A stretch of 63,442 bases of DNA, counting the filler, from Babesia bigemina (taxonomy: Eukaryota), in the NCBI RefSeq assembly GCF_000981445.1. It is 6 parts of 6 records of this genome, joined end to end, with 100 filler letters (N's around TTAATTAATTAA, not from the genome) between each part and the next. Parts side by side here need not be neighbours in the genome. Positions count along the whole stretch, not along the records: positions 1 to 15,769 come from NW_012237310.1; positions 15,870 to 37,086 come from NW_012237312.1; 4 more parts are not named here. One strand, 5' to 3'. Below, in pieces: positions 1 through 37,086 of this stretch. A model generated the notes under the pieces. It made no database searches. It was given only the letters and a program-made list of their open reading frames with translations, and was not told the origin of the DNA. Position numbers and translations under genes: made by a program. The first letter of the stretch is position 1. Each line of letters begins with the position of its first letter.

Positions 1-275
1 GCTGCCGAGACCATGTCATCGCTGCCGTAACCATGTCATCGCTGCCGTGACCGTGACATCGCTGCCGTGTTGATGTCATCGCTGCCGTGTTGATGTCATC
101 GCTGCTGTAACCATGTCACCGCTGCCGTAACTATGTCATCGCTGCCGTGACCATGTCATCGCTGCCGTGACCATGTCATTGCTGCCGTGACCGTGTCATC
201 GCTGCCGTAACCATGTCATCGCTGCCGTGACCGTGTCATCGCTGCCGTGACCATGTCATCGCTGCCGTGACCATC
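1..275. repeat. 20-bp tandem minisatellite (GCTGCCGTGACCATGTCATC)n
   Basis: Direct 20-bp periodicity from window start; same unit recurs at 8433, 22579, 29389 and 36494. Confidence 0.95.
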
Positions 276-605
276 AACTTGGTCAGGTGCTTGGTCACCA
301 CGTTGGTCGTGGCATTGGTCATGGCATTGGTCAGCTGTTAGGTCATGGCATTGGTCAGCACATAGGTCACCACGTTGGTCAGCACATAGGTCAGCACTTT
401 GGTCACCACTTTGGTCACCACGTTGGTCAACACGTTGGTCAACACATTGGTCATCACATTGGTCATCACATTGGTCATGTGCTAGGTCACCACTTTGGTC
501 ATGGCATTGGTCAGCACATAGGTCGGCACATTGGTCATGGCATTGGTCAGCACTTTGGTCACCACGTTGGTCAGCGCTTTGGTCATGGCATTGGTCAACA
601 CTTTA
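276..605. repeat. 12-bp tandem minisatellite (TTGGTCAGCACN-type)
   Basis: TTGGTCA core every 12 bp with variant units; gives the spurious (GQHV)n ORF. Confidence 0.95.
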
Positions 606-728
606 GTTAAATATTTCACAATCACACACAACAATTAATGAGTGATACAACACATTAAAGCACAATTCATAAGTTAGGTGAGTAGGTGATATGCTAGGTG
701 AGTGTAGATAGTAAACACGTGAGTACGA
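606..728 (-). other. Conserved ~120-bp 3' tail/UTR of ves cassette 1
   Basis: Near-identical block directly after the stop codon of all five complete repeat-flanked ves ORFs. Confidence 0.8.
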
Positions 729-3700
729 TTATGGTTGCAGATAAAACACCCTCCCCAGTTTGTTAACACGTGCAGCGGCGAGTAGTGATTGAGCAGCTAT
801 GCGATGACTCGAGGGACTATGCAAATGCGATTTGATGTGTAGGAGATCGAGGCGGATGACCATGATGTGGAGGAGGTAGAGGAAAGAGAGGAGCCAGAGG
901 GCGACGGTGGTCCAGAAGAATTTGTCTCGAATATCAAAAAGGAACTCATCGATAGCCTTGATTAGTGCGATAAGTACGGAATCTTTGTGAAGCACTCGTT
1001 CCAATGCACTGCAAAAATCAGCGCACGTCCGTATTTTAGCATCTCCCTTCTTGCCACTCAGTTCATGAGGGCTGCCAAAAGTGAAACCGTATTTGTACAG
1101 AGTAGGATGCGTGTCGGGGCACTTGACGATGGAGTTGCAGTCTTCAGAGTGTTTCTTACTTCTAAGCTCCTTGTTAACTGGTTTTGCGGGATACTTAACA
1201 GGACATGTTTTGATGCAGCTCTTATCGCAGCATCTGGTTCCAGGAGTAGCGCACTTTTTGCAGCACTCCTTGTACAGCTTGTCAAGCAAGGTGTAGAATG
1301 TCTCAGTGAGATAGACAATCCACGAGAGATAATTTCCGGCGTGCTTGTTGGAGAACATGGAACGCGTTTGCAAAGTAAGCGACTGCAGGTAAGGACCACA
1401 CGGATACGCTGGATTGCTTGTCCTATTGCAACGCACAAGAGTGTATAGATCACCCTTGAGATGACCAGAGTCGTCGACGGAGGAAGTTGACGTAACGTGA
1501 TCACTGGTTACTTGAATGGAAACAACTTGCAGCTTTTCGTAGTGTTCACCGAAATAGGCTGCATCGACAGCGGCATCAAAAGCACTCTTCTTATGCTTAG
1601 TCTGCTCGAAGTTCTCAAGCAACCCATGGTAGAAGGCAAACAGGTCACCCAGAGTCTGAGGCGTTTGACGTGTTAAGCAAGTAAGCATACCACACAGCTG
1701 CGTGAGGGCGGAGGACGTACCGCAGAAGTCGGCAAGTGCCTTTCTCAGATGCGCGCCTGTTTGAACATGTGAAGCTACTTGACTAAGGTATCTGAAACCC
1801 ATTGGCGTTTTGCATGGTATTCCTCTATGATTTGAGACTGTGCATTCCCATTTACAACCTGGCTTTGTAAACGAATGCGGCAGGAACCCGGGCAATCCAT
1901 CTTCCAAAAATGATTGAAGTGGCGATTTTACTCCGCACTTAGGGTGTTGCTTGCAGTTTTGGTTACATGTTTGGTCACCCGTTTGGTCGGTGTTTTGGTT
2001 GGCACATTGCTTTGTGTTGCAAGTCCATGCCGAACCGCCAATTCGCTGGCCGTAGAGACAGTCCGACCAACCGCTGCTATATTGGCTGTTGCGGCACTGG
2101 CTGTATATGAAGACGCATTGGTGATAAACTCTTGCCAATATGTCAGACAGCATGTCCAGGCAAGCACCGGCAGTGCTAGGATACAAAAGGTGATCTGGGT
2201 TGGTGTTGAAGTCAACGGCGTAGATACCGCTTTCGTGGCCATGTCCAAGGATGGCGATCAACACTTGCTCGGCATAGGCACAAACTTCTCCGAGGGTAGC
2301 GGATAGGTTCCCAGCAGATATCGGTCGCGGGTAGGCATCCAAGGTTTCGGAACTGTCGTCTCCGAATGATACACTTTCTCCGTCATCTTGCAACTTCGGT
2401 GCATCGCGTTTTTCGAACAGGTCGCTAAATCCGCTGACCGTCAGTTCCGAGTAGACAGCAGTGTGAGTGAGGCCGGTAAGCCACATGAGCATCTGGTATA
2501 CATTTGACGGCGTGGTAGGCTTGGGAACGTGCTTCAGGTGGCAAACGTCATAATACTGGTGGAGGCTGTCGTAGAGGTATTCGAGAAGTTTGTGCAGTTT
2601 TAACGTTTCACCGCCACTTTCCATATATCCGTCCAATAGCTTTTTCGTTGTCGCGTCTAAGCTGCCAAACTGATGGTAGCATAAGTCGCGAATATTGGAC
2701 CCTATCATTCCATCCGACCTCTGTAACTCACCATCTTGCTTAGTTTCACTGGTCGCCACTGTATAGCCACGTTCGACGAAGAACGTTCCGAGAGGATTAG
2801 CGATATATTCCGTTTTGATAACTTTGCTGCCCTTTTTCGTATGTTGTACAACTTTGCCTAGATGGATCTGCTCGCCGTTCCAAGCACTGTAGTCATTCCT
2901 CAATTTATAGAAATCAGCAAACAGAATCTGTAGAGACGTTAGAAACACTTTAGCACAGTTCCGTCCGTCGTCGGTCAGCGTCTGATTTTTCTCAGACGTC
3001 TTTTCACTCCCCCCCTTCGGAGCATCGGCCAGCCACTGACGTATCGGCTCAGCGCCGAGGTACTTGGGAATGTAGACCTTATTCAGCTCGCCAGCAAATG
3101 CGCCAAGACCTGCTACAATGCAGTCTAAGAGCGGGCTGTTCGGGTTTGAGAAGCCGTCTGGCTTGAGCATGGAGAGAGCAGAGGTGAGGTCGTCGAGCAT
3201 CAGAGGGATCTCGTGGTCGAAGCGCTTCTCATTCTTTAAGTGACTACAAACAGCGCTGAATCTGTGATGTATGTATTTAAGAGTAGGAGCGTATGATGCT
3301 TCGCTGCCTTGACGAACGGGACCCTTGTTATTGTTTTTGGTGTTCACCCTATCGATTTCTGTAATCATGTAGTTCTTTATCGGTGTAAAGCAGTTCATTA
3401 AAGCAAGTGACATACCGGCAAAATGTTGCGGAATATACTCAGTTGACTGATATATTGTGCCTGCAAGTTCTTTGAACCGCTTAATAATGTCTCCATTTCT
3501 ATGATCAGCGTCCGTATGTCCATCCGCGGACGTTTTCACAAAGCCCTTAAAGCCAACGGTCAGGTCTCTGTTGATATCTTCAGGTATTCCATCCAGCTCA
3601 GCGGTAGCTTTTTGGATGAATTCGGTCAGCTGCGATTTCATGAATGAGATGTACTTGGTTCTGATGGAATCAATGACGGTGTCTTTGGCGTCATCAAGTT

Positions 3701-6617
3701 GTTGAGTGACGTGTTGTTGCAGTTGTTCAACGATGAGTTCACTCGAAGAAGTGGATTGTATGATGATATCCTGGACTTGCTGCATTAATGGGTTCAGCTT
3801 GTCCGTTTGCAGTCTGTTGATGTCTTCTTTGAATTTCTGTAGAGTGCCGTCGGCGTGTGGCTTCTCTCTTGATATCCATTCTTTCAACTTTTCTAATTTG
3901 TTCTTCGCACATTCATTACTAGCAGTTGCTGCCTGTAAAATAGCATTGCAAAAAACCTGCATATGACTGTGAAAGTTGCTGAGATCTCGCCTGATAAGCT
4001 TGTCATCTACTGTGGTATTTAATTTGCTGAAAGCCATCAGAGCGTTCGTTCGAATTGCTTCAATCGAATTACCAAGAACACCACCTTTGCTAACATAACT
4101 TTTGTAAGCTGTCATTTTGTCTCTAATGCCGTGATCACCACTATAGAAATAGTTTGACATCGCAATGTCTATATCTGCTCCAAGTTCCTTGGAGGTCAAA
4201 ATGGTACCAAGTTGCTCAATCTTATCCTTGACAAGGTCCAACGCTCCTTGGATTTTATCGCCGGCTGTTCCGGTGTTATTTATTACATTTCTTATTGAGT
4301 TCGTTTTTGTGATAGCGTCATGCACGTTTTTGTGCAGGTTGGAAGTAGTGATGAGTTTTGCAACTTGTGCGGAAACATTCTTGGCAGCTGAGGTAAGAGC
4401 AGATACAGTTGCATCCATAGCATATTTTAAAATTGTTCTGTTATTGTGAAGACCTTTATCTTTTAAAACGTCAGCAGCAACTCCCTCAACGATGTCTGAG
4501 ATAAGCGCATGAATATCCCCTTTAGCAACTTTTGTATCAAGTTGAGCAGCGAATTCCGCGGACCCTGTCTCCAACCTCTTGTAACTTTTCACAATATCAT
4601 TATCTGAGGCGTCTTTCGAGCCTTTCGTTGCAAAAGATTGACCTGCTGTTTCAATTTGAGATTTAAGTGCCGTCCTAATTGAAGTTGCAATTTTGCTGAT
4701 GTGATTCTTTGTTATCTCACTTCGATAGTCACTATATTTGGAACTCAAATTGTTGCTGTTCGCATCAAAATAGGCTTTCATTTTGCTCTTCACGGGTTCA
4801 CTCCCCAAAATATCTTTCAACCACTCCTCCACTGTATTCCCAAAATTACTATCGGCGTAGGTTTCTGTAACATACTCCGTAAATCCACGAACAATACCTC
4901 TCAATCCGTCATAATTACGGGAACGTTCATCACCTTCAATTTTCTCTACAAAAGAATTAATAACGAATTTAAGAACATCCCAATTATAATCAATACTATC
5001 CCCGTTTTCATTTTTGCCTGCCTTATTCTTATTACCAACTTCTGTTTGAATTTCGCTAAGCATAACTGCAGCTTCTTCAACGTATTCTTCCACTTGCTTC
5101 TTTATTTCACTACTCAATGTCTTTAATCCCTTAATAATCTCTGCATCCAATCCCGTTACCGCATCACTCACCGCTGTTATCAATTTAGGTAGAGCATCTT
5201 TTGACGCATAATACGCTTTATACAAATCCAAGCCTTTCTTCTCCAACGCTTTAACAGACTCTATAAGTTTGTCCTTATGTGAAGTTTTGCTTCCACCAAC
5301 CTCACAAGCAATACTTTCCACGTTCCTTATGGTTAATTCGACAGCTTTGTGCGACTTTTCTATCCAATCATGAAGCCTTTCAACATGCTGCGACAATGTG
5401 TCATTAATTTCTGACATTTTTTGTATAAGCGCTCTAACGATGGCTGTTAACTCGTCGATGAATGAATTTATCTTCTGCGTTACCGTCGTCGTAATTGACT
5501 CCTTGGCATCATTCAGCTGAACGCCGACCAACTTAGTCACCTCCTCAAAGTCTGATTTTTGGCGTTCATATAGTTGACTCAGCCTTTTACGTTGATATTT
5601 AACGATTTCCGTTTTGCTTTTTAGTTTGTTCATTAAATCACCTTGAAGGTCATTAACATGGTCATTAGCATCTTTGATAGCACCCACGTACCGTTCGGCA
5701 TGATGCAGACATGTCTCAATTTGCTTATTAATTTTCTCAACGGAGTTACTAGCTGAATCATTTTGAAGTTCTTTTTTAATCGGTTCAACGTTTGAAGATA
5801 ACGTAGTTATTGCATTTTTAACATTCTCATTACTCTCCCTCACCCTATCATTATACCTCCCCACCCCTGCGACCACCTCTCCAATCGCATCATTAAAACC
5901 TTTTTTACCGGCGTGTTTATTGGCCTCAAGTGACGTAATTGCACTAGTAATTGTCTCTTTATGCTGCCCTAAATGCTTGTAGATGTTACTGAGAACACCA
6001 CTCAAAAATCCCATCACCCCGTCACACAGCCTGTCAAGGTCAGAGTACACAATCCCCTGGCCGTCGTAGCCTTTGGAAGTCTTATCGTAACCAAGAAAAG
6101 TCTGAAGGCCGTCACATAAATTATCTAAGAGGTTTTTAGGATTATTTGATGCATTTTTAAGATTCTTATAATTTTCACAAAGCTCCTCCACTTTCCTCAA
6201 AGCGTCCAACTTGGAGTGCAATTTGGCTAGCTCAGCAGAGGGAGAGGGGGAAGAAGGAAGATTATAAAGGTTATTAGGCTGTTTAAGTTGTTCTTCAAGA
6301 AGCTTAATTTGCTGAGTAACTCGCTGACTAAGCTTCTCAATTACATCGGTGCCAACAGCCTGGCCAGCAGAGTTGACAGACTCAGAAAGCTTAGTAACAA
6401 GAGAAATGTAAACATCATTTAGGTCATTTTTAAGCTCTTCATTACTGTTAATTACAACGATAATAGCATTCTTAACGGCTTTCTTAACAATCTCACTTTG
6501 ACCAACAAATCCTCCAAGCTGTCCAGCCAGGTGACCAAGGCTAATGAGCTTGGAGTCAATGTCCTTTATGGCTCTTCTAGTAGCATCGTCAGTGAGAGAA
6601 TGGTCAGTATCAACAAG
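729..6617 (-). CDS. ves1: Variant erythrocyte surface antigen (VESA1/ves1-like), cassette 1; frame open from 6617 but no 5' ATG (first in-frame ATG at 6014)
   Basis: GIVYSDLDRLCDGVM motif, long helical middle, Cys-rich C-terminal domain, TM segment and the tail RLDLLHIKSHLHSPSSHRIAAQSLLAAARVNKL.RVFYLQP typical of Babesia ves proteins. The ORF-track start at 6221 is TTG and the frame is bounded upstream by TAA TAA. Confidence 0.85.
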   Translation of the reverse strand, partial: LVDTDHSLTDDATRRAIKDIDSKLISLGHLAGQLGGFVGQSEIVKKAVKNAIIVVINSNEELKNDLNDVYISLVTKLSESVNSAGQAVGTDVIEKLSQRVTQQIKLLEEQLKQPNNLYNLPSSPSPSAELAKLHSKLDALRKVEELCENYKNLKNASNNPKNLLDNLCDGLQTFLGYDKTSKGYDGQGIVYSDLDRLCDGVMGFLSGVLSNIYKHLGQHKETITSAITSLEANKHAGKKGFNDAIGEVVAGVGRYNDRVRESNENVKNAITTLSSNVEPIKKELQNDSASNSVEKINKQIETCLHHAERYVGAIKDANDHVNDLQGDLMNKLKSKTEIVKYQRKRLSQLYERQKSDFEEVTKLVGVQLNDAKESITTTVTQKINSFIDELTAIVRALIQKMSEINDTLSQHVERLHDWIEKSHKAVELTIRNVESIACEVGGSKTSHKDKLIESVKALEKKGLDLYKAYYASKDALPKLITAVSDAVTGLDAEIIKGLKTLSSEIKKQVEEYVEEAAVMLSEIQTEVGNKNKAGKNENGDSIDYNWDVLKFVINSFVEKIEGDERSRNYDGLRGIVRGFTEYVTETYADSNFGNTVEEWLKDILGSEPVKSKMKAYFDANSNNLSSKYSDYRSEITKNHISKIATSIRTALKSQIETAGQSFATKGSKDASDNDIVKSYKRLETGSAEFAAQLDTKVAKGDIHALISDIVEGVAADVLKDKGLHNNRTILKYAMDATVSALTSAAKNVSAQVAKLITTSNLHKNVHDAITKTNSIRNVINNTGTAGDKIQGALDLVKDKIEQLGTILTSKELGADIDIAMSNYFYSGDHGIRDKMTAYKSYVSKGGVLGNSIEAIRTNALMAFSKLNTTVDDKLIRRDLSNFHSHMQVFCNAILQAATASNECAKNKLEKLKEWISREKPHADGTLQKFKEDINRLQTDKLNPLMQQVQDIIIQSTSSSELIVEQLQQHVTQQLDDAKDTVIDSIRTKYISFMKSQLTEFIQKATAELDGIPEDINRDLTVGFKGFVKTSADGHTDADHRNGDIIKRFKELAGTIYQSTEYIPQHFAGMSLALMNCFTPIKNYMITEIDRVNTKNNNKGPVRQGSEASYAPTLKYIHHRFSAVCSHLKNEKRFDHEIPLMLDDLTSALSMLKPDGFSNPNSPLLDCIVAGLGAFAGELNKVYIPKYLGAEPIRQWLADAPKGGSEKTSEKNQTLTDDGRNCAKVFLTSLQILFADFYKLRNDYSAWNGEQIHLGKVVQHTKKGSKVIKTEYIANPLGTFFVERGYTVATSETKQDGELQRSDGMIGSNIRDLCYHQFGSLDATTKKLLDGYMESGGETLKLHKLLEYLYDSLHQYYDVCHLKHVPKPTTPSNVYQMLMWLTGLTHTAVYSELTVSGFSDLFEKRDAPKLQDDGESVSFGDDSSETLDAYPRPISAGNLSATLGEVCAYAEQVLIAILGHGHESGIYAVDFNTNPDHLLYPSTAGACLDMLSDILARVYHQCVFIYSQCRNSQYSSGWSDCLYGQRIGGSAWTCNTKQCANQNTDQTGDQTCNQNCKQHPKCGVKSPLQSFLEDGLPGFLPHSFTKPGCKWECTVSNHRGIPCKTPMGFRYLSQVASHVQTGAHLRKALADFCGTSSALTQLCGMLTCLTRQTPQTLGDLFAFYHGLLENFEQTKHKKSAFDAAVDAAYFGEHYEKLQVVSIQVTSDHVTSTSSVDDSGHLKGDLYTLVRCNRTSNPAYPCGPYLQSLTLQTRSMFSNKHAGNYLSWIVYLTETFYTLLDKLYKECCKKCATPGTRCCDKSCIKTCPVKYPAKPVNKELRSKKHSEDCNSIVKCPDTHPTLYKYGFTFGSPHELSGKKGDAKIRTCADFCSALERVLHKDSVLIALIKAIDEFLFDIRDKFFWTTVALWLLSFLYLLHIMVIRLDLLHIKSHLHSPSSHRIAAQSLLAAARVNKLGRVFYLQP

Positions 6618-6806
6618 TTATTATAATGGTTTATGGAGGTCATAGCGTTAATAAGACGAAGTAATTCGAGAGATTTGAAGATAGGGTGAACATGATGGGA
6701 CATGGCAGTGGCAAGAGGTGGATGGAGGGAAGTGAAGGGTGACAAGGCACAAGTTATTGCTATGGTTTAAAGAGGTCATAGCGGTGTTATGGCGAAGTAA
6801 TTCGAA
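6618..6806 (-). other. Conserved cassette leader (long type) with out-of-frame uORF
   Basis: Closely matches 16175-16361 and 29787-29973; begins exactly at the edge of the 22-bp array. Confidence 0.75.
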
Positions 6807-8398
6807 GGATGTAGAGTGGGTTAAGGGGCGATGTGGAGTGGATAGAGGGGCGATGTAAGGTGGGTTAGGGAGCGATTAGAGGAGGTTAAGGGGCGATGTA
6901 GAGTGGATTAGGGAGCGATGCAGAGTGGGTTAAGGGGCGATGTAGAGTGGATAAAGGAGCGATGTAGAGTGGATAAGGGAGGGATGTAGAGTGGGTAAAG
7001 GGCGATGTGGAATGCGTTAGGGAGCGATGTAGAGTGGATAAGGAGCGATGTGGAGTGGATAAAGGGGCGATGTAGAGTGGGTAAAGGAGCGATGTGGAGT
7101 GGATAAAGGAGCGATGTAGAGTGGGTTAGGGAGCGATGTAGAGTGGATAAAGGGGCGATGTAGAGTGGGTAAAGGAGCGATGTAGAGTGGGTAAAGGAGC
7201 GATGTAGAGTGGATAAAGGGGCGATGTAGAGTGGGTAAAGGAGCGATGTAGAGTGGGTAAAGGAGCGATGAAGGGTGGATAGAGGAGCGATGTAAGGTGG
7301 GTTAGGGAGCAATGTGGAGTGGGTTAGGGAGCGATGTGGAGTGGATAAAGGGGCGATGTATAGTGGGTTAAGGAGCGATGTAGAGTGGTTTAGGGGCGAT
7401 GTGGAGTGGATAGAGGGGCGATGTAAGGTGGGTTAGGGAGCGATTAGAGGAGGTTAAGGGGCGATGTGGAGTGGACAAAGGGGCGATGTAGAGTGGATAG
7501 AGGAGCGATGTGGAGTGGATTAGGGAGCGATGTAGAGTGGGTAAAGGGGCGATGTGGAGTGGGTAAAGGAGCGATGTAGAGTGGATTAGGGAGCGATGCA
7601 GAGTGGGTTAAGGGGCGATGTAGAGTGGATTAGGGAGCGATGCAGAGTGGGTTAAGGGGCGATGTAGAGTGGATAAAGGAGCGATGTAGAGTGGATAAGG
7701 GAGGGATGTAGAGTGGGTTAAGGGGCGATGTAGAGTGACTAAAGGGGCGATGTAGAGTGGGTAAAGGGGCGATGTAGAGTGGATAAAAGGGCGATGTAGA
7801 GTGGGTTAGGGAGCGATGTGGAGTGGGTTAAGGGGCGATGTAGAGTGGATTAGGGAGCGATGTAGAGTGGGTAAAGGGGCGATGTAGAGTGGATAAAGGC
7901 GCGATGTAGAGTGGATAAAGGGGCGATGTAGAGTGGGTTAAGGAGCGATGAGGAGTGGGTTAGGGAGCGATGAAGAGTGGGTAAAGGGCGATGTAGAGTG
8001 GGTAAAGGGGCGATGTAGAGTGGGTTAAGGGGCGATGTAGAGTGGGTTAAGGGGCGATGTAGAGTGGATTAGGGAGCGATGAAGAGTGGGTAAAGGGGCG
8101 ATGTAGAGTGGGTTAGGGAGCGATGTGGAGTGGGTAAAGGGGCGATGTAGAGTGGGTAAAAGGGCGATGTGGAGTGGATAAGGAGCGATGTGGAGTGGGT
8201 TAGGGAGCGATGTAGAGTGGATAGAGGAGCGATGTGGAGTGGATAAGGGGCGATGTAGAGTGGGTTAAGGAGCGATGTAGAGTGGATAAAGAAGCGATGT
8301 GGAGTGGGTTAGGGAGCGATGTAGAGTGGATAAAGGAGCGATGTAGAGTGGATAAAGGAGCGATGTAGGGTGGGTTAAGGGGCGATGTAGAGTGGATA
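6807..8398. repeat. 22-bp G-rich tandem array (GCGATGTAGAGTGGGTTAAGGG/GGGTTAGGGA variants)
   Basis: GCGATGT(A/G)GAGTGG every 21-22 bp; strong G skew. Confidence 0.95.
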
Positions 8399-8432
8399 AC
8401 AATCACCACTTTGGTCAGCTGCTTGGTCACCA

Positions 8433-8657
8433 CTGTCATCGCTGCTGTGTCCATGTCATCGCTGCCGTGTTGATGTCATCGCTGCCGTGACCATGTCATC
8501 GCTGCCGTGTCCATGTCATCGCTGCCGTGTCTATGTCATCGCTGCCGTAACCATGTCATCGCTGCCGTAACCATGTCATCTGCTTTGTCACCACTGTCAT
8601 CGCTGCCCTGACCATGTCATCGCTGCCGTAATCATTTACTGTCATCGCTGCCGTGAC
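8433..8657. repeat. 20-bp tandem minisatellite
   Basis: (GCTGCCGTGACCATGTCATC)n variants. Confidence 0.92.
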
Positions 8658-9097
8658 CACTAACTTGGTCAACACTTTGGTCAACACCTTGGTCATGGCA
8701 TTGGTCAGCACCTTGGTCAGCACCTTGGTCATGGCATTGGTCACCACTCAGGTCAGCACCTTGGTCAGCACTTTGGTCACCACTTTGGTCATGGCATTGG
8801 TCACCACCTTGGTCACCACGTTGGTCAGCACCTTGGTCAACACTTTGGTCAACACCTTGGTCATGGCATTGGTCAGCACTTTGGTCACCACTTTGGTCAT
8901 GGCATTGGTCACCACCTTGGTCAACACGTTGGTCAGCACCTTGGTCAGCACCTTGGTCATGGCATTGGTCACCACTCAGGTCAGCACCTTGGTCAGCACT
9001 TTGGTCACCACTTTGGTCAACACATTGGTCAGGTGCTTGGTCAGCACATTGGTCATCACGTTGGTCACCACGTTGGTCAGCACATTGGTCAACACTT
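8658..9097. repeat. 12-bp tandem minisatellite
   Basis: TTGGTCA core every 12 bp. Confidence 0.95.
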
Positions 9098-9223
9098 CAG
9101 TTAACTACTACACAATCACATATTACAACAATTAATGAGTGATAGAACAGATTAAAGCACAATTCATAAGTTAGGTGAGTAGGTGATGCTAGGTGAGTGT
9201 AGATAGTAAACACGTGAGTGAGA
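9098..9223 (-). other. Conserved 3' tail/UTR of ves cassette 2
   Basis: Nearly identical to 606-728. Confidence 0.8.
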
Positions 9224-14788: not shown

Positions 14789-14844
14789 AAGTTTTTATTG
14801 TGGTTTAAAGAGGTCATAGCGGTAATATGGCGAGGTGATTCGAG
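14789..14844 (-). other. Conserved cassette leader (short type)
   Basis: CGAATCACCTCGCCATATTACCGCTATGACCTCTTTAAACCAC... joins the array to the ves frame; the leader ATG is out of frame and stops. Confidence 0.75.
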
Positions 14845-22578: not shown

Positions 22579-22682
22579 GATGGTCACGGCAGCGATGACA
22601 TGGTCACGGCAGCGATGACATGGACAAAGCAGCGATGACATGGTTACGGCAGCGGTGACATGGTCGCGGCAGCGATGACAGT
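22579..22682. repeat. 20-bp minisatellite (GGTCACGGCAGCGATGACAT)n
   Basis: About five units. Confidence 0.9.
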
Positions 22683-22703
22683 GGTGACCAAAGTGATGAT
22701 GAT

Positions 22704-23728: not shown

Positions 23729-23755
23729 CTCGAATTACCTCGCCATAATACCGCT

Positions 23756-28912: not shown

Positions 28913-29035
28913 TCGTACTCACGTGTTTACTGTCTACACTCATCTAGCATCACCTACTCACCTATACAACTAATTGTTCTCTAATGTTTTGTATCACTCA
29001 TTAATCGTTGTATGTGATTGCGTAGTAGTTAACTG
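28913..29035 (+). other. Conserved 3' tail/UTR of cassette 4
   Basis: Homologous to the other four tails. Confidence 0.8.
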
Positions 29036-29388
29036 ATGTGGTGACCAATGTGCTGACCAAAGTGCTGACCAATGCCATGACCAACGTGCTGACCAAGGTG
29101 CTGACCAAAGTGCTGACCAATGTGCTGACCAATGCCATGACCAAAGTGCTGACCAAAGTGCTGACCAATGTGCAGACCAATGCCATGACCAAGGTGCTGA
29201 CCAACGTGGTGAACAATGCCACGACCAACGTGGTGACCAATGCCATGACCAGAGTGCTGACCAAAGTGCTGACCAATGTGCAGACCAATGCCATGACCAA
29301 GGTGCTGACCAACGTGGTGAACAATGCCACGACCAACGTGGTGACCAATGCCATGACCAGAGTGCTGACCAAGCACCTGACCAAGTTG
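29036..29388. repeat. 12-bp minisatellite
   Basis: TGACCAA periodicity; 108-bp higher-order duplication. Confidence 0.95.
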
Positions 29389-29531
29389 ATGGTCACGGCA
29401 GCGATGACATGGTCACGGCAGCGATGACTTGGTTAAGGCAGCCATGTCTTGGTCACGGCAGCGATGACTTGGTTAAGGCAGCCATGACATGGTCACGGCA
29501 GCGATGACACGGTCACGGCAGCGATGACATG
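29389..29531. repeat. 20-bp minisatellite
   Basis: GGTCACGGCAGCGATGACAT variants. Confidence 0.9.
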
Positions 29532-29550
29532 GTGAGCAGAGTGGTGATTA

Positions 29551-29786
29551 TCATCCACTCTACATCGCTCCCTAACCCACTCTACATCGCCCTTTTACCC
29601 ACTCTACATCGCTCCTCTATCCACTCTACATCGCCCCTTTATCCACTCTACATCGCCCCTTTACCCACTCTACATCGCCCCTTTATCCACTCCACATCGC
29701 TCCCTAACCCACTCTACATCGCCCCTTTACCCACTCTACATCGCCCCTTACCCACTCTACATCGCCCCTTACCCACTCTACATCGC
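29551..29786. repeat. Short 22-bp array
   Basis: About 11 units of CATCGCYCCTTTACCCACTCTA. Confidence 0.93.
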
Positions 29787-29973
29787 TCGAATTACCTCGC
29801 CATATTACCGCTATGACCTTTATAAACCATCACAATAACTTGTGCCTTGTCACCCTTCACTTCCCTCTTCCACCTCTTGCCACTGCCATGTCCCATCATG
29901 TTCACCCTAACTCCAAATCTCTCGAATTACTTCGTCTTATTAACGCTATGACCTCCATAAATCCTTATAATAA
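29787..29973 (+). other. Conserved cassette leader (long type) with ATG uORF 29813-30025
   Basis: Matches the leaders of cassettes 1 and 3. Confidence 0.75.
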
Positions 29974-32900
29974 CTTGCTGATACTGACCATTCCATTACT
30001 GACGATGCTACTAGAAGAGCCTTGAAGGACATTGAGTCCAAGCTCATTAGCCTTGGTCACCTTGCTGGTCAACTTGGAGGATTTGTTGGTGAGAGTGAGA
30101 GTGTTAAGAAAGCCGTTGTGAATGCTATTATCGCTAAAATTAACAGTAATGAAGAGCTTAAACATCTTTACTCTTCTCTTGTTACTAACCTTTCTGAGTC
30201 TGTCAAGCCTGCTGACCAGGCTGATGACACCGATGAAATTAGTGAGCTTAGTAAGTTAGTTACTGCAGAAATTCAGCGTCTTGAACAGCAACTTAAACAG
30301 CCTAATAAACATCCTAATAATCTTCCTTCTTGCCCCTCTCCCTCTGCTGACTCAGACAAATTGCAGTCCAAGTTGGAGGCTTTGAAGAAAGTGAATGAGC
30401 TTTGTGGATTTTTGACTAATCTTAATAATCATCCAAATGAGCCTAAAAAGCTTTTAGAAAACCTCTGCACTGGCCTCGAAAAATTCCTCGGCTTCAACTC
30501 TGACTCCAAAGGCTACGACGGCACTGGGATAGTGTACTCCGACTTGGATAGGCTGTGTGACGGGGTGATGGCGTTTTTGTATCAGGTGCTTAAAGACGTC
30601 AGCGAGAAACAGCCTTACAGTGTGGGTAAAACAATACTAAATGACATTGTTAATGAGCTTAAAAAGAATTTATCCACCGGGCGTAAGGGTTTTGAGGTTA
30701 TTGCGCAGGTGGCGCAGAGGGTGCGGGGGTATAATGAGAGAGTTAAGGAGGGGAATGAGAGGGTGAAAACCGTAATCGGAAAATTGTTTGACAAGATAAA
30801 TGAGACAGGTATGTGGCGTAAGAGCATTAATGCTATGCAGGCATCTGATAATTTAAATCAAGCGGAAGAGGACGTGAAGTCGGCAGCGTTCATGGTGAAG
30901 GAGTGTCTTGAGACCACTGAAGTATTCACTAACGCATTAGATATTGTTCATCCTGATAACCGTGACATGAAAAATTCCATTAATGACTTAAACACTAACT
31001 TACGTGATAACGTTCTTAATGCACGAATGACGATTGAGCATGAGAGTGAGAGGCTCGCTGCCCTTTCCGCCAAGGCGTGGAACGACCTAGCTGGCATGAC
31101 GAACAAAACGCGTGATGCATTGAATGAGCTGAAAACAAACGTTACTAATGAAATCAGCGATAAAGTATTAAAGCTGGTCGTGCTGTTGAACCAAAAGGTT
31201 CTGGCAATTAGGAATCAGCTTATAGAGATTGAAAGAGATTTGGGGCACTACATTCATCAGTTGGAAAATTGGATGGACAAGGCGAAGAAATTGATTGATG
31301 ACGTGACCAATACGCACATTAACGCTATTATTAACCACGGTGTCGGTTACGTTAATCATAAGAAACTGGAAGATATTGCGGATGAAATTAGGAGAGGATT
31401 AAACGCGGCAAGGAACCATCTCAATGATATGGTAACGAAAGCGTTGGAGCAAGTGAAAGCGATGGACGCGGCGCTTAAAGGGGATTTGTATAAGGTGAAG
31501 CAGGCAATAGGGGAGCAGGTTAAAAAAATCCAACAGGAGATTAGGTCGCTTGGAAATCAGTTCAATGGGGGTAGCGGAACAACGCCGGATAGCATTGAGA
31601 AGATAATGAAGCATATAAAAGAAAAGATAGACGATATTGAGGGGCACGTTGGTGAATCCAGAAAGCCAGGATCCGCCAGCGGGGCGGATGCAAGTGTACA
31701 ACAGAATTGGGATGCGTTGAAAGCAAAGATGACGGAGCTTCTTGGGGATATATATGAAAGATCATCTGCGGCAAAAATGAATTATCTCGGCAAAATCGAG
31801 AAAGGCGTGACGGAGTATGCTGCATTGTTCAAGGATACGACAGGAGGTAATGGGTTTAACAAAAGAGTTGATGAGTGGGTGGCGGAAATAATTACGAAAG
31901 AACCAGTTAAAGGATTGCTTACAGAGTATGTTAAACAGAATAGGAGCATTGGGTTTTTTAACGGTTACATGAGTGATAAGGGTCCTGATAGATTACGTAA
32001 TCATGTCACACCTATACTGAAATTGCAAATCACGGAAAAGCTTCAAGAGATTAAGCCAAAAATTACTTTTGGCACCAAACCTAACGTGGAGGGGTACTTG
32101 TCATATGTAACGGACTATCTTTCCGAGTTTTCAAAAAACGCTATGAGTAAAGAAGATGGTATAGTTACAGCAATCTCTAGCGTAGTGCAACTTGATGTTC
32201 AGTTGGTAGCGTCTGCTGACCACAGGGGGCACCGAAAGTTCTATCTCGAGCTCGCTGTGCGTGCCACTCTATCCGCTCTAACATTCATTGCCAAGCATAT
32301 TGCCTACCAATTGGAATCATTTGCTAGCACAAACACAGATCTTGGCACCAAGTTGCCGGCAGCTATTAAGCAAGTTAAATTGATTAGCCAACAATTTGAT
32401 CCGGGTAATTCTTTCGGCGCTAAGATTGATAGAGCGTTGAGCAGCGTACAATTAGAAGTTAAGACCCTGCACAGGCAGCTGAACTCGGCGCTTGAACCCG
32501 GCGTCTCTAGCGCTAGCAACGCTAAATTCGTCGACACCGCTATCTCGGACATGAACAACGTGGCTAATGATCACATCGGTACGACTCCGCTGCCAGGTGG
32601 AGGCACGTCAAACGAGAGAATTTCCGAGCTCGGTAGAAATGGTTTTGAAAAATATAAACAGCAAGTTAATCAAGATAGCCTTATTCAAGGGAACCCAGAA
32701 AAGTTTAGCGGCGTCCTACCCGCGGCCATCGGTGAGATTAGGGATCATGGTTTCAAAGTATTCGAAAAAATGTTAACCGGCACAAAACCTGATGAACAGC
32801 ATTCTATCGGACATCTCGAGCAAATGAAAAGCAATCTTACCAATTTGATAGCGGCGTTTTCGGCTGCAGGTAAAGCTATCGAAGCTAATTTAGGAAATCT

Positions 32901-35900
32901 AAAAGAAGGTAATATTACAAACGATCTGAAAATAATTAGAAATCAAATCGACACCCTTCGTACAGTCGATTTGGGAAGAATCATCAAGGATGCCACAAAA
33001 TTTCACAGTTTCGCCACGACACAATGTGAGGAAACCGTCCAAACCCTTACGCGACACGTCGACAATGAAGTGGAGTCCGCCCTCTCCACCCTCACCACCG
33101 CCGCCCGCCGCAACTACGTCACCTCCGTCAAGGCGCTCCTCACCGCGTTCGCGGACAAGGTCGAAAAGGAGTTGGAGGGGTTGCCGGGGGAGATTGACAA
33201 GGATTTGACGATCGGGTACAAGGGGTTTATGAAGACGTTGGGAGACGGATATACCAAAGGAACTATAACAAGTAATAATATTAACTTGCTTAAAAGTCTA
33301 GCAACACTTTTTAAATCAAATGAATATAATGCGAGAGATTTTTCCGATTTGGCGGAGGCATTCTATGACTTCTTCACGCCAGTCAAAAAGTATGTTCTGC
33401 GAGAGATAAGCAGCGTGCATGGCAAAGAAAATGAGAAACGAAATCGGAATCCTTCATCAAAAGAGACCTTATACACCAATAAGTTTAATGATATCTGCGC
33501 GGCACTTGAATCCTTGCTCACTCATATTAAGGACAAAAATAAATATGATAGTGAAGTGCCTAAAATGCTTGTAAAACTTACTTCTAAGATCACTGAGCTT
33601 AAGCCAGAAAACTTCGATATGCAAAATACTCCAACGATGGACAGCGTTTCCCTAGGACTTAACGACTTTGTCAGTGAGCTGGAAAAGGTCTACATATCGG
33701 CGTATGACGGTCAGAAATATGAGAAGGACGTGTACATATATAAACAGCGCGTTGACACGAGAGGAAAGGTTGAGATACATGAGGTGACTGAGTATGGTAT
33801 GAACTGCGCGAAGGTGTTCCTTACCGCCCTGTCGACACTGAGTTATGACTTTCAGACTTTGGGAGAGAAATGTAAAGGTTCGCAGTTCCAAACTATTTAC
33901 GCATCCAACGAGAACATAACGAATGTCTTAGGTGACTATCTTATCAGTCGCGGGTACAAGGTTTCTATGTCTCGTGAGTCACATGAGGGACAGTTGAGGA
34001 ATGAGCCAAAGTGCGCCGGTCAAGCCATATATCTGAGTAAGCTGAACGAACAAATCAAAACCGCTGTAAATCTGAAACAGGTCGAAGCGTGGAAAGAAGA
34101 ACAGAAGAAAGAAAATAAGTTCACTCATCCCCGCGATGCTGATAGTAATAAGATTAATCTCCTCGACATTCTCGATTACCTGCAGTATTGCCTTGAAACC
34201 TACTACCAAGTCCGCCACTATGCTACCTTTTTCTCTAAGAAGCAGCCGTGCTCAGTTTATGAAATGCTCTGTTGGCTGTCCGGGATGCCATGCAATAACG
34301 CCTACGAGGAGCTGTTAGGTGACGGCCTCAGTGATCCGTTCAAGGATCCAAGAAAGCAGACAAAAGAAGTGGCAGGCGAGAGTGAATTCACTGTGGAAAC
34401 GCCGGAATCTTTGTACCTGGATGCATCCCCCAAAACGATGAAATATGCAAATACTGTGCGAGTTGTGCGACATCTTTGTCCAATCTCTCACGACCTGCTG
34501 ACGATCCTCCTCGGTCACGGTGACGCAGAGACCACGTACGCGGTTGACTTCTCCAGCAACGCGATGAACTTACACTATCCTCAGAAGGGCGAAGATTGCC
34601 TCCAGATGCTGCTCGATATATTGTGCCGTTTGCTACCGCAGCTGAGATACTTACATGAAAAATGTAAGCTAGGCACTGAGCACGGTGGTTGGTACAGCTG
34701 CAAGTACGGCAAAGTTATCAAGACAAGCAAGTGGCCATGTTCCGATCACTCAAGCGACGAAGCAAAAGACAAAGCAACGTGCCAACCAAAATCACCACTT
34801 CAATCATACCTAAACGACTGCTTACCAGGTCACCTACCTCATCGAGTGGAATCAATCGGATGTAACGCCGTATGTAAGACGTGTCCTGGTAGTAAGCCCG
34901 GAATGCCCTGTTTGACGCCTCTTGGATTCAGAGGATTCTCCGGCAGTACCAAGAGAGGCAAAGACATATGCACCGTGCTAACCAAGTTCTTTGACGAGGT
35001 GGACATCTCATGCCTCTTCGCCCTTTCTGTCAAACCGCCACGCACGTTGCCGGAACACTTCGGATTTACGTTGTCATTAGTTAATGGGTGGCATACATCC
35101 AACAAATCGGGTTTCCGTAATGTGTTGCAAGATACCTTCGATAATGCCATCTACAATTTATCTATTCAACTAGCAGACAAACAGGGCACACTACCAGATG
35201 CGTTGCGTAAAGCGTATGGCAGCGATCAGGAAAGTCATTCTAGACATGAAACAGATTCTGCTGACCTGGTCAGTTTGTCATTAAGAATGCCATGTACCGG
35301 TGCGGATAACCACTGCGCTCCTTACGTATCCACTTCATGCGTCGACATATATAATTATCTCCCATACAAACACGCCAACCTCTACCTCTCCTGGGCCATC
35401 TACCTCCCGTGGACATTCTGGGACCTGCTCAACAATCTCTACAATTCTTTCTGCTCCATCAACTGCCAGGACTGGGGATGCCGTGGATGTCTGAGGGGGG
35501 ATAAGTGCAAGAAGGGATCGCATGGTGTTGTTGATAAAGAGAAGCCATCTGCTGATTGCCAATGCCCTTCTATCGTCGACTGCAAAGGTGTCGCACCAAC
35601 GCTCTACCAGTATGGTTTCGTCTTCGGTGAAGCGTCGACGCTGAATGACAGTCAATCGCCGAAGAAGTGTTCCGATTTCTGTAGTCAGTTGAAGAATGTG
35701 CTTAAATCGCAGTATTTCAAGAAGCTGTTTGAAGAATGCGACAACTTCTTATGGATCATCAGACAACCGTTCACCTACCTTGTCCTTGCCCTCTGGCTCC
35801 TCTCTTTATTGTACCTCCTCCACATCATGGTCATCCGCCTCGACCTGCTCCACATCAAATCGCATCTACATAGTCCCTCGACTCATCGCATAGCTGCTCA

Positions 35901-35961
35901 ATCATTGCTCGCCGCGGCACGTGTTAACAAGCTTAACAGAGTGTTTTACCTGCAACCGTAA
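29974..35961 (+). CDS. ves1: VESA1/ves1-like cassette 5; no 5' ATG (ORF-track start 30022 is TTG; first in-frame ATG at 30568)
   Basis: GIVYSDLDRLCDGVM, SPLQSYLNDCLPGHLPH, CQDWGCRGC Cys domain, TM segment and conserved tail. Confidence 0.87.
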   Translation, partial: LADTDHSITDDATRRALKDIESKLISLGHLAGQLGGFVGESESVKKAVVNAIIAKINSNEELKHLYSSLVTNLSESVKPADQADDTDEISELSKLVTAEIQRLEQQLKQPNKHPNNLPSCPSPSADSDKLQSKLEALKKVNELCGFLTNLNNHPNEPKKLLENLCTGLEKFLGFNSDSKGYDGTGIVYSDLDRLCDGVMAFLYQVLKDVSEKQPYSVGKTILNDIVNELKKNLSTGRKGFEVIAQVAQRVRGYNERVKEGNERVKTVIGKLFDKINETGMWRKSINAMQASDNLNQAEEDVKSAAFMVKECLETTEVFTNALDIVHPDNRDMKNSINDLNTNLRDNVLNARMTIEHESERLAALSAKAWNDLAGMTNKTRDALNELKTNVTNEISDKVLKLVVLLNQKVLAIRNQLIEIERDLGHYIHQLENWMDKAKKLIDDVTNTHINAIINHGVGYVNHKKLEDIADEIRRGLNAARNHLNDMVTKALEQVKAMDAALKGDLYKVKQAIGEQVKKIQQEIRSLGNQFNGGSGTTPDSIEKIMKHIKEKIDDIEGHVGESRKPGSASGADASVQQNWDALKAKMTELLGDIYERSSAAKMNYLGKIEKGVTEYAALFKDTTGGNGFNKRVDEWVAEIITKEPVKGLLTEYVKQNRSIGFFNGYMSDKGPDRLRNHVTPILKLQITEKLQEIKPKITFGTKPNVEGYLSYVTDYLSEFSKNAMSKEDGIVTAISSVVQLDVQLVASADHRGHRKFYLELAVRATLSALTFIAKHIAYQLESFASTNTDLGTKLPAAIKQVKLISQQFDPGNSFGAKIDRALSSVQLEVKTLHRQLNSALEPGVSSASNAKFVDTAISDMNNVANDHIGTTPLPGGGTSNERISELGRNGFEKYKQQVNQDSLIQGNPEKFSGVLPAAIGEIRDHGFKVFEKMLTGTKPDEQHSIGHLEQMKSNLTNLIAAFSAAGKAIEANLGNLKEGNITNDLKIIRNQIDTLRTVDLGRIIKDATKFHSFATTQCEETVQTLTRHVDNEVESALSTLTTAARRNYVTSVKALLTAFADKVEKELEGLPGEIDKDLTIGYKGFMKTLGDGYTKGTITSNNINLLKSLATLFKSNEYNARDFSDLAEAFYDFFTPVKKYVLREISSVHGKENEKRNRNPSSKETLYTNKFNDICAALESLLTHIKDKNKYDSEVPKMLVKLTSKITELKPENFDMQNTPTMDSVSLGLNDFVSELEKVYISAYDGQKYEKDVYIYKQRVDTRGKVEIHEVTEYGMNCAKVFLTALSTLSYDFQTLGEKCKGSQFQTIYASNENITNVLGDYLISRGYKVSMSRESHEGQLRNEPKCAGQAIYLSKLNEQIKTAVNLKQVEAWKEEQKKENKFTHPRDADSNKINLLDILDYLQYCLETYYQVRHYATFFSKKQPCSVYEMLCWLSGMPCNNAYEELLGDGLSDPFKDPRKQTKEVAGESEFTVETPESLYLDASPKTMKYANTVRVVRHLCPISHDLLTILLGHGDAETTYAVDFSSNAMNLHYPQKGEDCLQMLLDILCRLLPQLRYLHEKCKLGTEHGGWYSCKYGKVIKTSKWPCSDHSSDEAKDKATCQPKSPLQSYLNDCLPGHLPHRVESIGCNAVCKTCPGSKPGMPCLTPLGFRGFSGSTKRGKDICTVLTKFFDEVDISCLFALSVKPPRTLPEHFGFTLSLVNGWHTSNKSGFRNVLQDTFDNAIYNLSIQLADKQGTLPDALRKAYGSDQESHSRHETDSADLVSLSLRMPCTGADNHCAPYVSTSCVDIYNYLPYKHANLYLSWAIYLPWTFWDLLNNLYNSFCSINCQDWGCRGCLRGDKCKKGSHGVVDKEKPSADCQCPSIVDCKGVAPTLYQYGFVFGEASTLNDSQSPKKCSDFCSQLKNVLKSQYFKKLFEECDNFLWIIRQPFTYLVLALWLLSLLYLLHIMVIRLDLLHIKSHLHSPSTHRIAAQSLLAAARVNKLNRVFYLQP

Positions 35962-36086
35962 TCGTACTCACGTTGTTACTGTCTACACTCACCTAACATA
36001 TCACCTACTCACCTAACAAATGAATTGTGCTTTAATCTGTTGCATCACTCACTCATCGTTGTATGCGATTGTGTAGTAGTTAACTT
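35962..36086 (+). other. Conserved 3' tail/UTR of cassette 5
   Basis: Homologous to the other tails. Confidence 0.8.
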
Positions 36087-36485
36087 ATGTGGTGACCAAT
36101 GTGTTGACCAACGTGTTGACCAAGATGCTGCCCAAAGTGTTGACCAAGGTGGTGACCAATGTGCTGACCAATGTGCTGACCAAAGTGTTGACCAAAGTGG
36201 TGACCAAGCACCTGACCAATGCCATGACCAAAGTGCTGACCAATGCCATGACCAATGTGCTAACCAATGTGCTGACCTAACGGCTGACCAATCTGCTGAC
36301 CAAAGTGGTGACCAAAGTGCTGACCAAAGTGCTGACCAATGCCACGACCAAAGTGGTGACCTAAGTGCTGACCAACGTGCTGACCAACGTGCTGACCAAA
36401 GTGGTGACCTATGTGCTGACCAAAGTGGTGACCTATGTGCTGACCAATGCCATGACCAAAGTGCTGACCAACGTGTTGACCAAGG
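36087..36485. repeat. 12-bp minisatellite
   Basis: TGACCAA periodicity. Confidence 0.95.
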
Positions 36486-36493
36486 TAATAATT

Positions 36494-36989
36494 ACGGCAG
36501 CGATGACATGGTCACGGCAGCGATGACATGCTTAGGGCAGCGATGACATGGCTACGGCAGCGATGACATGGTCACGGCAGCGATGAGATGGTCACGGCAG
36601 CGGTGACATGGTTAAGGCAGCGATGACATGGTTACGGCAGCGATGACATGGTCACGGCAGCGATGAAATGGTCACGGCAGCGATGACATGGCTACGGCAG
36701 CGATGACATGGTCACGGCAGCGATGACAAGGTCACGGCAGCGGTGACATGGTCACGGCAGCGATGACATGGTCACGGCAGCGATGACATGGCTACGGCAG
36801 CGATGACATGGTCACGGCAGCGATGACAAGGTCACGGCAGCGGTGACATGGTCACGGCAGCGATGACATGGTCACGGCAGCGATGACATGGTTACGGCAG
36901 CGATGAAATGGTCACGGCAGCGATGACATGGACTCAGCAGCGATGACATGGACACGGCAGCGATGACATCGTCACGGCAGCGATGACAG
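36494..36989. repeat. 20-bp minisatellite (longest copy)
   Basis: About 25 units of CGATGACATGGTCACGGCAG. Confidence 0.95.
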
Positions 36990-37022
36990 TGGTGACCAAC
37001 CACCTGACCAAAGTGGTGATTA

Positions 37023-37086
37023 TCATCCACTCTACATCGCCCCTTTACCCACTCTACATCGCCCCTTATCCACTCCACATCGCCCC
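37023..37086. repeat. Start of next 22-bp array, cut by gap
   Basis: About three units following the same short linker seen at 8399-8432 and 22683-22703. Confidence 0.85.

What the first reader, a model, noticed from the sequence alone, without database searches (positions are those of the whole stretch)
1..37086. Head-to-tail array of start-less ves cassettes, each framed by a fixed three-minisatellite module: candidate silent donor archive for antigenic variation
Seen: the five complete ves ORFs here follow one grammar, 22-bp array > fixed leader > ves frame without a usable 5' ATG > ~120-bp conserved tail > 12-bp array > 20-bp array (> next 22-bp array wherever the sequence continues). The sixth, at 58487-61286, shows the same 5' half before a gap. 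Spacers are almost entirely repeats, with no unique promoter-like DNA, yet the 5-6 kb frames remain intact. Known: B. bovis ves1 varies by segmental gene conversion into an active locus. Trypanosome VSG cassettes (70-bp repeats upstream, conserved 3' end) and Borrelia vls cassettes use repeat-bounded silent donors. Inference: this is a repeat-delimited cassette library whose shared flanks supply homology for whole-cassette or segmental conversion into an expression site. I know of no description of this three-repeat architecture in Babesia, but cannot exclude one.
Basis: partly seen in the sequence, partly recalled or inferred. Interest (0 to 1): 0.92.

Follow-up and report, generated by a model that had tools for sequence, protein, structure and literature searches.

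The report
Repeat-framed headless Babesia antigen cassettes
In the cattle parasite Babesia bigemina, surface-antigen genes that lack their normal start sit head-to-tail between three fixed DNA repeats, and such headless copies share long segments with complete copies, so they likely serve as a reserve library for immune evasion.

Summary
The architecture is real. Five full and one partial Babesia bigemina ves1b frames each follow: 22-bp array, 74-bp leader, 5'-truncated frame, 125-bp tail, 12-bp and 20-bp arrays. Corrections: 1-37086 is two unjoined contigs (2 + 3 cassettes); the leader carries a conserved ATG, not usable in 6 of 6 window cassettes but open into the frame in 14 homologous models. 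Public gene models show two tiers: 16 of 16 headless models on chromosome-scale contigs lie in chromosome-end clusters, while 23 of 23 complete ones lie inside them (22 on chromosome 3). Complete genes share 120-690-residue tracts at about 90-93% identity with headless models, against 15-33% elsewhere, and the frames stay open despite dS above 1.2. A donor archive is the best reading (0.6). The flanks are absent from the complete gene in the window, so conversion there would use blocks inside the coding sequence, not the repeats. Silence is unproven: a published proteome assigns peptides to 30 chromosome-end models. No description of this architecture turned up in the Babesia literature searches.

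The parts
1..274 (-). 20-bp array after c1 (cut by contig start)
291..601 (-). 12-bp array after c1
602..728 (-). conserved tail of c1
729..6617 (-). c1: 5'-truncated ves1b frame, 1962 codons plus stop; first in-frame Met at 6014
6618..6808 (-). doubled leader of c1 (ATGs at 6779 and 6643, neither open into the frame)
6808..8395 (-). 22-bp array before c1, about 72 copies
8429..8659 (-). 20-bp array after c2
8664..9097 (-). 12-bp array after c2
9098..9223 (-). conserved tail of c2
9224..14794 (-). c2: 5'-truncated ves1b frame, 1856 codons plus stop; first in-frame Met at 13846
14773..14846 (-). leader of c2 (ATG at 14817, out of frame)
14842..15769 (-). 22-bp array before c2 (cut by contig end)
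15770..15869 (.). artificial N-linker between two contigs
15870..16177 (+). 22-bp array before c3 (cut by contig start)
16173..16361 (+). doubled leader of c3
16362..22127 (+). c3: 5'-truncated ves1b frame, 1921 codons plus stop; first in-frame Met at 16968
22128..22252 (+). conserved tail of c3
22253..22685 (+). 12-bp array (22253-22579) then 20-bp array (22580-22685)
22707..23731 (+). 22-bp array before c4, about 47 copies
23727..23875 (+). leader of c4; ATG at 23756 is in frame, reading ends at a stop at 23873-23875
23876..28912 (+). c4: 5'-truncated ves1b frame, 1678 codons plus stop; first in-frame Met at 24035
28913..29035 (+). conserved tail of c4
29036..29533 (+). 12-bp array (29036-29388) then 20-bp array (29389-29533)
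29553..29788 (+). 22-bp array before c5
29784..29973 (+). doubled leader of c5
29974..35961 (+). c5: 5'-truncated ves1b frame, 1995 codons plus stop; first in-frame Met at 30568
35962..36086 (+). conserved tail of c5
36087..36993 (+). 12-bp array (36087-36483) then 20-bp array (36494-36993)
37025..37086 (+). start of the next 22-bp array (cut by contig end)
43617..48557 (+). v7: complete ves1b gene with the normal N-terminus, no arrays, leader or tail; the in-window control
58487..60824 (-). c6: 5' part of a sixth cassette, cut by contig end
60793..61286 (-). leader (60793-60866) and 22-bp array (60866-61286) of c6

Best explanation
These are 5'-truncated B. bigemina ves1b cassettes framed by a fixed minisatellite module, likely pieces of chromosome-end arrays that likely act as a mostly unexpressed sequence archive, from which segments would be copied by gene conversion into the complete ves1b genes. 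Shown: the grammar, the loss of the conserved N-terminus, open frames, the two-tier placing of named public models, and tracts shared between the tiers. Inferred: that the window's contigs are subtelomeric, that cassettes are mostly not translated in place, and that flow runs from cassette to complete gene. Conversion into complete genes would pair on conserved blocks inside the coding sequence (the IDWLIQVR, DLDRLCD and C-terminal blocks); the repeats would more likely drive cassette-to-cassette exchange and array growth, and possibly silencing.
For: Two tiers: of 154 B. bigemina models retrieved, 25 keep the KLTDCPENL-type N-terminus and 129 do not. On chromosome-scale contigs, 16 of 16 headless models fall in terminal gene clusters (13 by locus name, 3 by accession order) and 23 of 23 complete ones lie inside those clusters, 22 on chromosome 3. 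30 of 30 large terminal-cluster models listed with coordinates point away from the assembly end, head to tail; the chromosome 3 right-end run spans 147 kb. Selection: C-terminal 450 residues have dN/dS 0.22-0.42 and dS 1.3-2.3 in the 8 of 10 cassette pairs not saturated, yet no stops; 0 of 200 neutral simulations of c5 stay open at 2% divergence. Exchange: 5 of 26 complete proteins share an exact tract of 48-78 residues with a headless model outside the conserved blocks, while the longest match to 64 B. ovata models is 29. Examples: 689 aa at 90% against 15% elsewhere; 226 and 304 aa at 93% against 31%; c2 itself shares 147 aa at 90%, 55 of them identical in a row, with complete model P0041. 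Complete and headless C-terminal domains interleave in the tree (11 label changes, at least 7 forced). The leader ATG sits in three different frames in the three homologous cassettes c1, c3, c5. Leader junctions recur in contigs of four other runs.
Against: Direction of transfer is not shown; tracts are also shared among cassettes. The leader ATG is kept in 9 of 9 leader copies and opens into the frame in 14 homologous models. The proteome table of PMC4066756 assigns 1-7 quantifying peptides each to 30 terminal-cluster models, and the leader-type model BBBOND_0300010 has a higher iBAQ (11090) than the top labelled VESA1b (8525); this fits expression in place as well as conversion. dN/dS in the stretch before the first Met is 0.7-1.3 among c1, c2, c3, c5, so purifying selection there is not shown. 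21 of 26 complete proteins have no long exact tract with the cassettes retrieved. Headless status of most public models rests on gene predictions, not DNA; only 41 are verified by leader-derived N-termini or window DNA.
Confidence: 0.6

Rival explanations
1. The cassettes are a second, expressed class: transcribed from the 22-bp array or leader and translated from the leader ATG, a spliced leader exon or the CDG(V)M Met into N-terminally shortened VESA1b.
For: Leader ATG kept in 9 of 9 copies; 14 models open from it at the same spacing as c4; peptides assigned to 30 terminal models; bodies under purifying selection.
Against: 0 of 6 window cassettes read through from the leader ATG, and its frame differs among c1, c3, c5. 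The public models of those three homologous cassettes begin with three different leader-derived peptides (P0176, P0172, P0028), the mark of gene-finder rescue (inference). Frames stay open for 198-316 codons before the first Met in 5 of 6, which a start at that Met would not require (about 0.23 per 200-codon copy at 10% neutral divergence). The N-terminal motif of every labelled, detected VESA1b whose sequence I hold (11 of 18) is missing. The proteome came from another strain than the searched reference and gives no peptide positions.
Confidence: 0.25
2. The cassettes are passive by-products: complete genes broken at their telomere-facing end, capped by a repeat module and multiplied by unequal exchange, with flow only from complete genes to cassettes and no donor role.
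For: Leader joined at several different points of the frame; near-identical tracts between cassettes, such as 612 aa at 99% for c2; pre-Met dN/dS near 1; one stop in the 5' part of c4.
Against: Five 5-6 kb frames with dS above 1.2 between them carry no stop. Headless models outnumber complete ones among those retrieved, 129 to 25 (biased by cassette queries). Two complete models carry C-terminal ends otherwise typical of cassettes and are patchworks of several of them, which favours cassette-to-complete flow (inference).
Confidence: 0.1
3. One reading: the shared leader, tail and arrays are the homology arms for whole-cassette conversion into a dedicated expression site that carries the same flanks.
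For: Complete models P0051 and P0041 match cassettes up to the stop codon; P0041 and P0163 share an N-terminus but have unrelated, cassette-like bodies, as variants of one site would.
Against: v7 has none of the flanks. Tracts in P0054 and P0136 end inside coding sequence; P0054 keeps its own last residues. The flanking DNA of P0041, P0051 and P0163 could not be read.
Confidence: 0.05

Closest known systems
BbigVes1b family (Jackson 2014, PMC4066756; read sections 4 part 1, 13, 20-24 and 26, passages, supplement 2 text, parts of supplement 3)
   Same: Same proteins; 80 ves1b, 28 on internal chromosome 3, 37-44% of loci not comparable for gaps said to be mostly subtelomeric, strong recombination.
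   Different: What I read reports no 5' truncation, leader, minisatellite module or two-tier split; 'truncat' and 'start codon' occur 0 times in the main text. Figures could not be seen.
B. bovis LAT and segmental gene conversion (PMC2034396, PMC6630957; passages)
   Same: Conversion from non-transcribed donors; truncated ves1 genes were proposed as functional pseudogenes.
   Different: There 75% of ves1 genes are away from telomeres and over half are head-to-head pairs; no ordered repeat-framed cassette arrays in the passages read.
Trypanosoma brucei VSG archive (PMC6152948; passages)
   Same: Subtelomeric donor genes with an upstream repeat and conserved 3' part.
   Different: The 70-bp repeat is shared with the expression site; here the complete gene lacks the repeats. 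About 70% of VSGs are frameshifted or fragmentary; here bodies are intact and only the 5' end is lost.
Pneumocystis msg-I genes (PMC5676039; passages)
   Same: Subtelomeric copies without own promoter or start, each beginning with a conserved element.
   Different: One fixed junction shared with a single expression site, genes pointing to the telomere; here several junctions, leader absent from v7, at least 25 complete genes, and genes pointing away from the assembly end.
Borrelia vls cassettes (PMC2632889; passages)
   Same: Contiguous silent cassettes donating segments; flanking direct repeats are not required for use as donor.
   Different: 15 short cassettes 90-96% identical to one expression site; here 5-6 kb frames only 15-35% identical outside shared tracts.

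Membership tests
BbigVes1b | Homology to labelled VESA1b, with the conserved C-terminal membrane domain | tested here: met
   c4 C-terminal region hits BBBOND_0303890 at 52%, labelled BbigVes1b. No Pfam family passed its cut-off.
BbigVes1b | Conserved N-terminus of complete genes (Met then KLTDCPENLRE.IDW) | tested here: not met
   Absent or cut in 6 of 6 cassettes, present in v7: truncated members.
BbigVes2 | Short genes lacking the C-terminal domain | tested here: not met
   5 of 5 whole frames keep the C-terminal end and are 1678-1995 codons; definition.
T. brucei-type VSG archive | Donor arrays at subtelomeres | tested here: inconclusive
   16 of 16 headless models on chromosome-scale contigs are terminal; the window's contigs are unplaced and no telomere repeat tract was seen.
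T. brucei-type VSG archive | Upstream repeat shared by donors and expression site | tested here: not met
   No array or leader around v7; only one complete locus could be read as DNA.
T. brucei-type VSG archive | Donors are not transcribed in place | tested here: inconclusive
   No run on record as RNA of this parasite was laid as raw reads; proteome ambiguous.
T. brucei-type VSG archive | Observed conversion into the expressed gene during infection | not testable with these tools
   Only historical shared tracts.
Pneumocystis msg-I | Donors lack a usable start | tested here: inconclusive
   Met in 6 of 6 window cassettes; 14 homologous models open from the leader ATG.
Pneumocystis msg-I | One fixed junction shared with a single expression site | tested here: not met
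   Three junctions in the window, more in homologues; leader absent from v7; 25 complete models.
B. bovis LAT system | Head-to-head ves1 pairs around a short shared promoter | tested here: not met
   Cassettes are head to tail within each contig.
B. bovis LAT system | Segmental mosaics between paralogues | tested here: met
   120-690 aa tracts at about 90-93% in a 15-33% background.

The most novel reading that the evidence does not exclude
B. bigemina has evolved a trypanosome-style two-tier antigenic variation system not described in an apicomplexan: more than 100 headless, intact ves1b cassettes stored in polarised chromosome-end arrays, each framed by a dedicated three-minisatellite module that silences and reshuffles the archive, feeding about 25 expression-competent genes concentrated on one chromosome; B. 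ovata has a parallel layout with its own spacer.
Probability: 0.45. Interest if true: 0.82.

Novelty: new variant of a known kind. Interest (0 to 1): 0.66.

Why it matters
B. bigemina mostly lacks the paired loci that explain switching in B. bovis (35% paired), so how it varies its surface antigen is open. A repeat-marked headless class separates candidate donors from candidate expression loci by sequence alone and makes the question testable with long reads. The ves1b repertoire also looks larger than the 80 reported: 154 B. bigemina models came from two capped searches, nearly all named hypothetical. The module gives concrete targets for chromatin and recombination studies.

Tried and rejected
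No whole genome was held, so the arrays could not be mapped genome-wide; the only control for 'repeats beside other genes' is the 23 kb of non-cassette contigs in the window. No RNA holder on record was listed. Runs X5, X14, X17, only guessed to be RNA, give contigs over the 22-bp array/leader junction and no splice-like joint, and almost nothing on the v7 region (with X8); contigs cannot show level or strand and may be DNA, so this was not used for or against expression. The tree kept 105 rows: a motif filter dropped 49 (6 complete, including P0051), and P0146, P0163, c6, four window-duplicate models and all B. ovata rows were left out; it cannot give direction. Leader as degenerate ves coding or v7-flank sequence: no local similarity above shuffles. 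The 12-bp array frame finds no Babesia protein (2 weak unnamed hits). Rfam: 0 matches. Pfam: only sub-threshold coiled-coil hits. Earlier scan findings: none. A search on repetitive DNA terms returned unrelated papers; a VSG-array search returned 0. PMC10975891 has no ves1 passage (supplements not read). My first reading of the proteome, that only complete genes were detected, was overturned. Assembly artefact rejected: the array/leader junction and tail appear in other runs' contigs, although 99-100% tracts between small contigs could still be haplotypes or chimeras.
Full report
What is in the window. The window is six contigs joined by N-linkers. The finding spans two of them: 1-15769 with cassettes c1 and c2 on the minus strand, and 15870-37086 with c3, c4 and c5 on the plus strand. 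A sixth, partial cassette c6 fills 58487-61286. Within each contig the cassettes are head to tail; the back-to-back pose at 15770-15869 is artificial. The C-terminal region of c4 finds 386 proteins; of the 120 listed, all but the window's own are named B. bigemina or B. ovata, and they include BBBOND_0303890, labelled BbigVes1b in the supplement of PMC4066756. A complete ves1b gene, v7 (43617-48557), on another contig serves as control.

The grammar. Each cassette reads 22-bp array, leader, frame, tail, 12-bp array, 20-bp array, one to three 12-bp-like units, next 22-bp array. Leaders are 85-92% identical over 74 bp and tails 83-91% over 123-127 bp; the v7 tail is 48-50% alike, within shuffles (mean 48%, maximum 54%). 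187 of 188 22-bp motif hits and all 20-bp, paired 12-bp, leader and tail hits are on cassette contigs. The three whole spacers are 69-86% tandem repeat, the remainder shared tail and leader. Contigs of runs X1, X5, X14 and X17 carry leader junctions, three of them with 22-bp units beside the leader, so the module is not peculiar to one assembly.

Start-less, with a caveat. All six frames lack or cut the N-terminus of complete genes, and the first in-frame Met is the CDG(V)M Met, 53-316 codons in. The leader joins the frame at three points: near IDWLIQVR (c2, c6), before DTDHS after a second leader copy (c1, c3, c5), and at SCHC (c4); homologues show further joints. Every leader holds an ATG (9 of 9). 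It reads through in 0 of 6 window cassettes and lies in three different frames in c1, c3, c5. But 14 public models of the c4 type run from it to DLDRL at the same spacing as c4, so some cassettes have a usable start for a shortened protein.

Two tiers. Two capped protein searches (best 120 of 386 and 120 of 126) plus one cluster member gave 154 B. bigemina models: 25 complete, 129 not. The queries were cassettes, and some headless models may be partial or mis-predicted. On chromosome-scale contigs, 16 of 16 headless models are in terminal gene clusters (13 by locus name, 3 by accession order) and 23 of 23 complete ones lie inside, 22 on chromosome 3, matching the 28 internal chromosome 3 loci noted in PMC4066756. 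Coordinates in that paper's supplement put 30 of 30 large terminal models pointing away from the assembly end, four of the outermost 756-1286 bp from it, with a 147-kb run at the right end of chromosome 3. I hold sequences for 12 of these 30; the rest are taken as ves1b from size and place. That the window's contigs belong to such arrays is inferred, and assembly ends are not proven telomeres.

Selection and exchange. Over the last 450 residues, cassette pairs have dS 1.3-2.3 and dN/dS 0.22-0.42 (8 of 10 pairs; 2 saturated), with no stops; neutral simulation leaves c5 open in 0 of 200 runs at 2% divergence. Before the first Met, dN/dS is 0.7-1.3 among c1, c2, c3, c5, but the frame is open in 5 of 6. 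Outside the DLDRL block and last 120 residues, 5 of 26 complete proteins share an exact 48-78-residue tract with a headless model; the B. ovata maximum is 29; the other 21 reach 13-30. BBBOND_0305380 matches P0010 over 689 aa at 90% (15% elsewhere) yet keeps its own last residues; BBBOND_0312580 matches P0097 over 226 and 304 aa at 93%, separated by unrelated sequence; BBBOND_0312140 is a patchwork of several headless models to its stop; P0041 shares 147 aa at 90% with c2. The C-terminal tree interleaves the tiers (105 rows, 49 dropped by a motif filter). Cassettes also exchange with each other: c2 has 612 aa at 99% with P0196, c6 has 189 aa at 96% with P0218 from near the leader joint. Exchange is thus shown at protein level; its direction is inferred only from two complete models that carry cassette-type ends.

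Mechanism. Most likely the cassettes are a store. Losing the 5' end and any unique upstream DNA would stop normal expression, while repeated use of their segments in expressed genes would keep the bodies open. Because v7 has no array, leader or tail, and clear tracts end inside coding sequence, pairing with complete genes would rely on conserved coding blocks. The repeats would instead favour exchange among cassettes and array expansion, and may nucleate silencing; neither role was tested. In Borrelia, flanking repeats are likewise not needed for donor use.

Against. The proteome table lists 18 labelled VESA1b, and the 11 whose sequence I hold are all complete, but it also assigns 1-7 quantifying peptides each to 30 terminal 'hypothetical' models, the leader-type BBBOND_0300010 ranking above the top labelled VESA1b. 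The proteome was from another strain than the searched reference, orthology of ves1b at shared positions is 0-3%, no unplaced-contig identifier appears in the table, and peptide positions are not given. It therefore shows that cassette-type sequence reaches protein, not where from. Expression in place keeps 0.25.

Known and new. Silent donor archives are known from T. brucei, Pneumocystis and Borrelia (passages), and truncated ves1 donors were proposed for B. bovis (passages). This system fails defining features of each (shared upstream repeat, single junction, head-to-head pairs) but works like them. Literature searches, with sections, passages and supplements of PMC4066756 and passages of PMC5660447, PMC10463595 and PMC6630957, showed no description of the truncation, the module or the two tiers; subscription papers, figures and unread supplements may hold one. 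Verdict: new variant of a known kind, interest 0.66.

Noticed in passing
window 16886-16962, 23953-24029, 30486-30562, 44140-44163, 60236-60259: Two primers of the widely used B. bigemina SpeI-AvaI diagnostic PCR (BiIB, BiIBN; sequences from PMC3979951 and PMC12025327) match the conserved LGFN...DLDRLCD block of ves1b with 2-3 mismatches (3 and 5 sites; 0 expected). The anonymous target is likely a ves1b gene, which would explain its sensitivity and its cross-reaction with B. ovata. No paper held both terms.
   Followed up: partly
proteins P0160-P0214 and other B. ovata models: B. ovata shows a parallel split: 10 of 10 complete models lie on one 3.70-Mb contig, against 1 of 54 headless ones; P0180, P0187 and P0212 share a different leader-like peptide.
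   Followed up: partly
proteins P0041 and P0163: Two complete models on separate small contigs share the start MRHVPKKLTDC but have unrelated cassette-like bodies; candidates for variants of one active locus.
   Followed up: partly
window 22-bp arrays: 23 of 31 G-quadruplex-like motifs (loops up to 12) lie in the 22-bp arrays, on the strand antisense to ves. The unit contains CCCTAA/CCCTTTA-like words; if cassettes point away from the telomere, its G-rich strand has telomeric polarity (inference; Babesia telomere repeats).
   Followed up: partly
window 20870-20901, 10418-10465, 27681-27766: The 12-bp spacer unit reads like the C-x-x-Q tetrapeptide repeat inside the ves1b frames (for example SADQ in c3), so the array may derive from coding sequence.
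   Followed up: partly
window 37187-52335: A likely ves1a-type frame (38255 to the contig edge, -) diverges from a cysteine-rich frame with a hydrophobic stretch (40630-41526, +), v7 and a second likely ves1a-type frame (49758 on, +). Run X2 has several 85-90% identical contigs across the v7 upstream region, so this block is itself likely multicopy.
   Followed up: no
window 33080 and 36017 (loose ends): Single contigs suggest further layouts: a leader end joined about 1035 codons into the frame (X1) and a tail followed directly by a leader core without arrays (X17).
   Followed up: no
window 61387-63442: GC-rich (56-66%) contig with a longer repeated unit giving near-identical reading frames at 61699 and 63196; not examined.
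   Followed up: no
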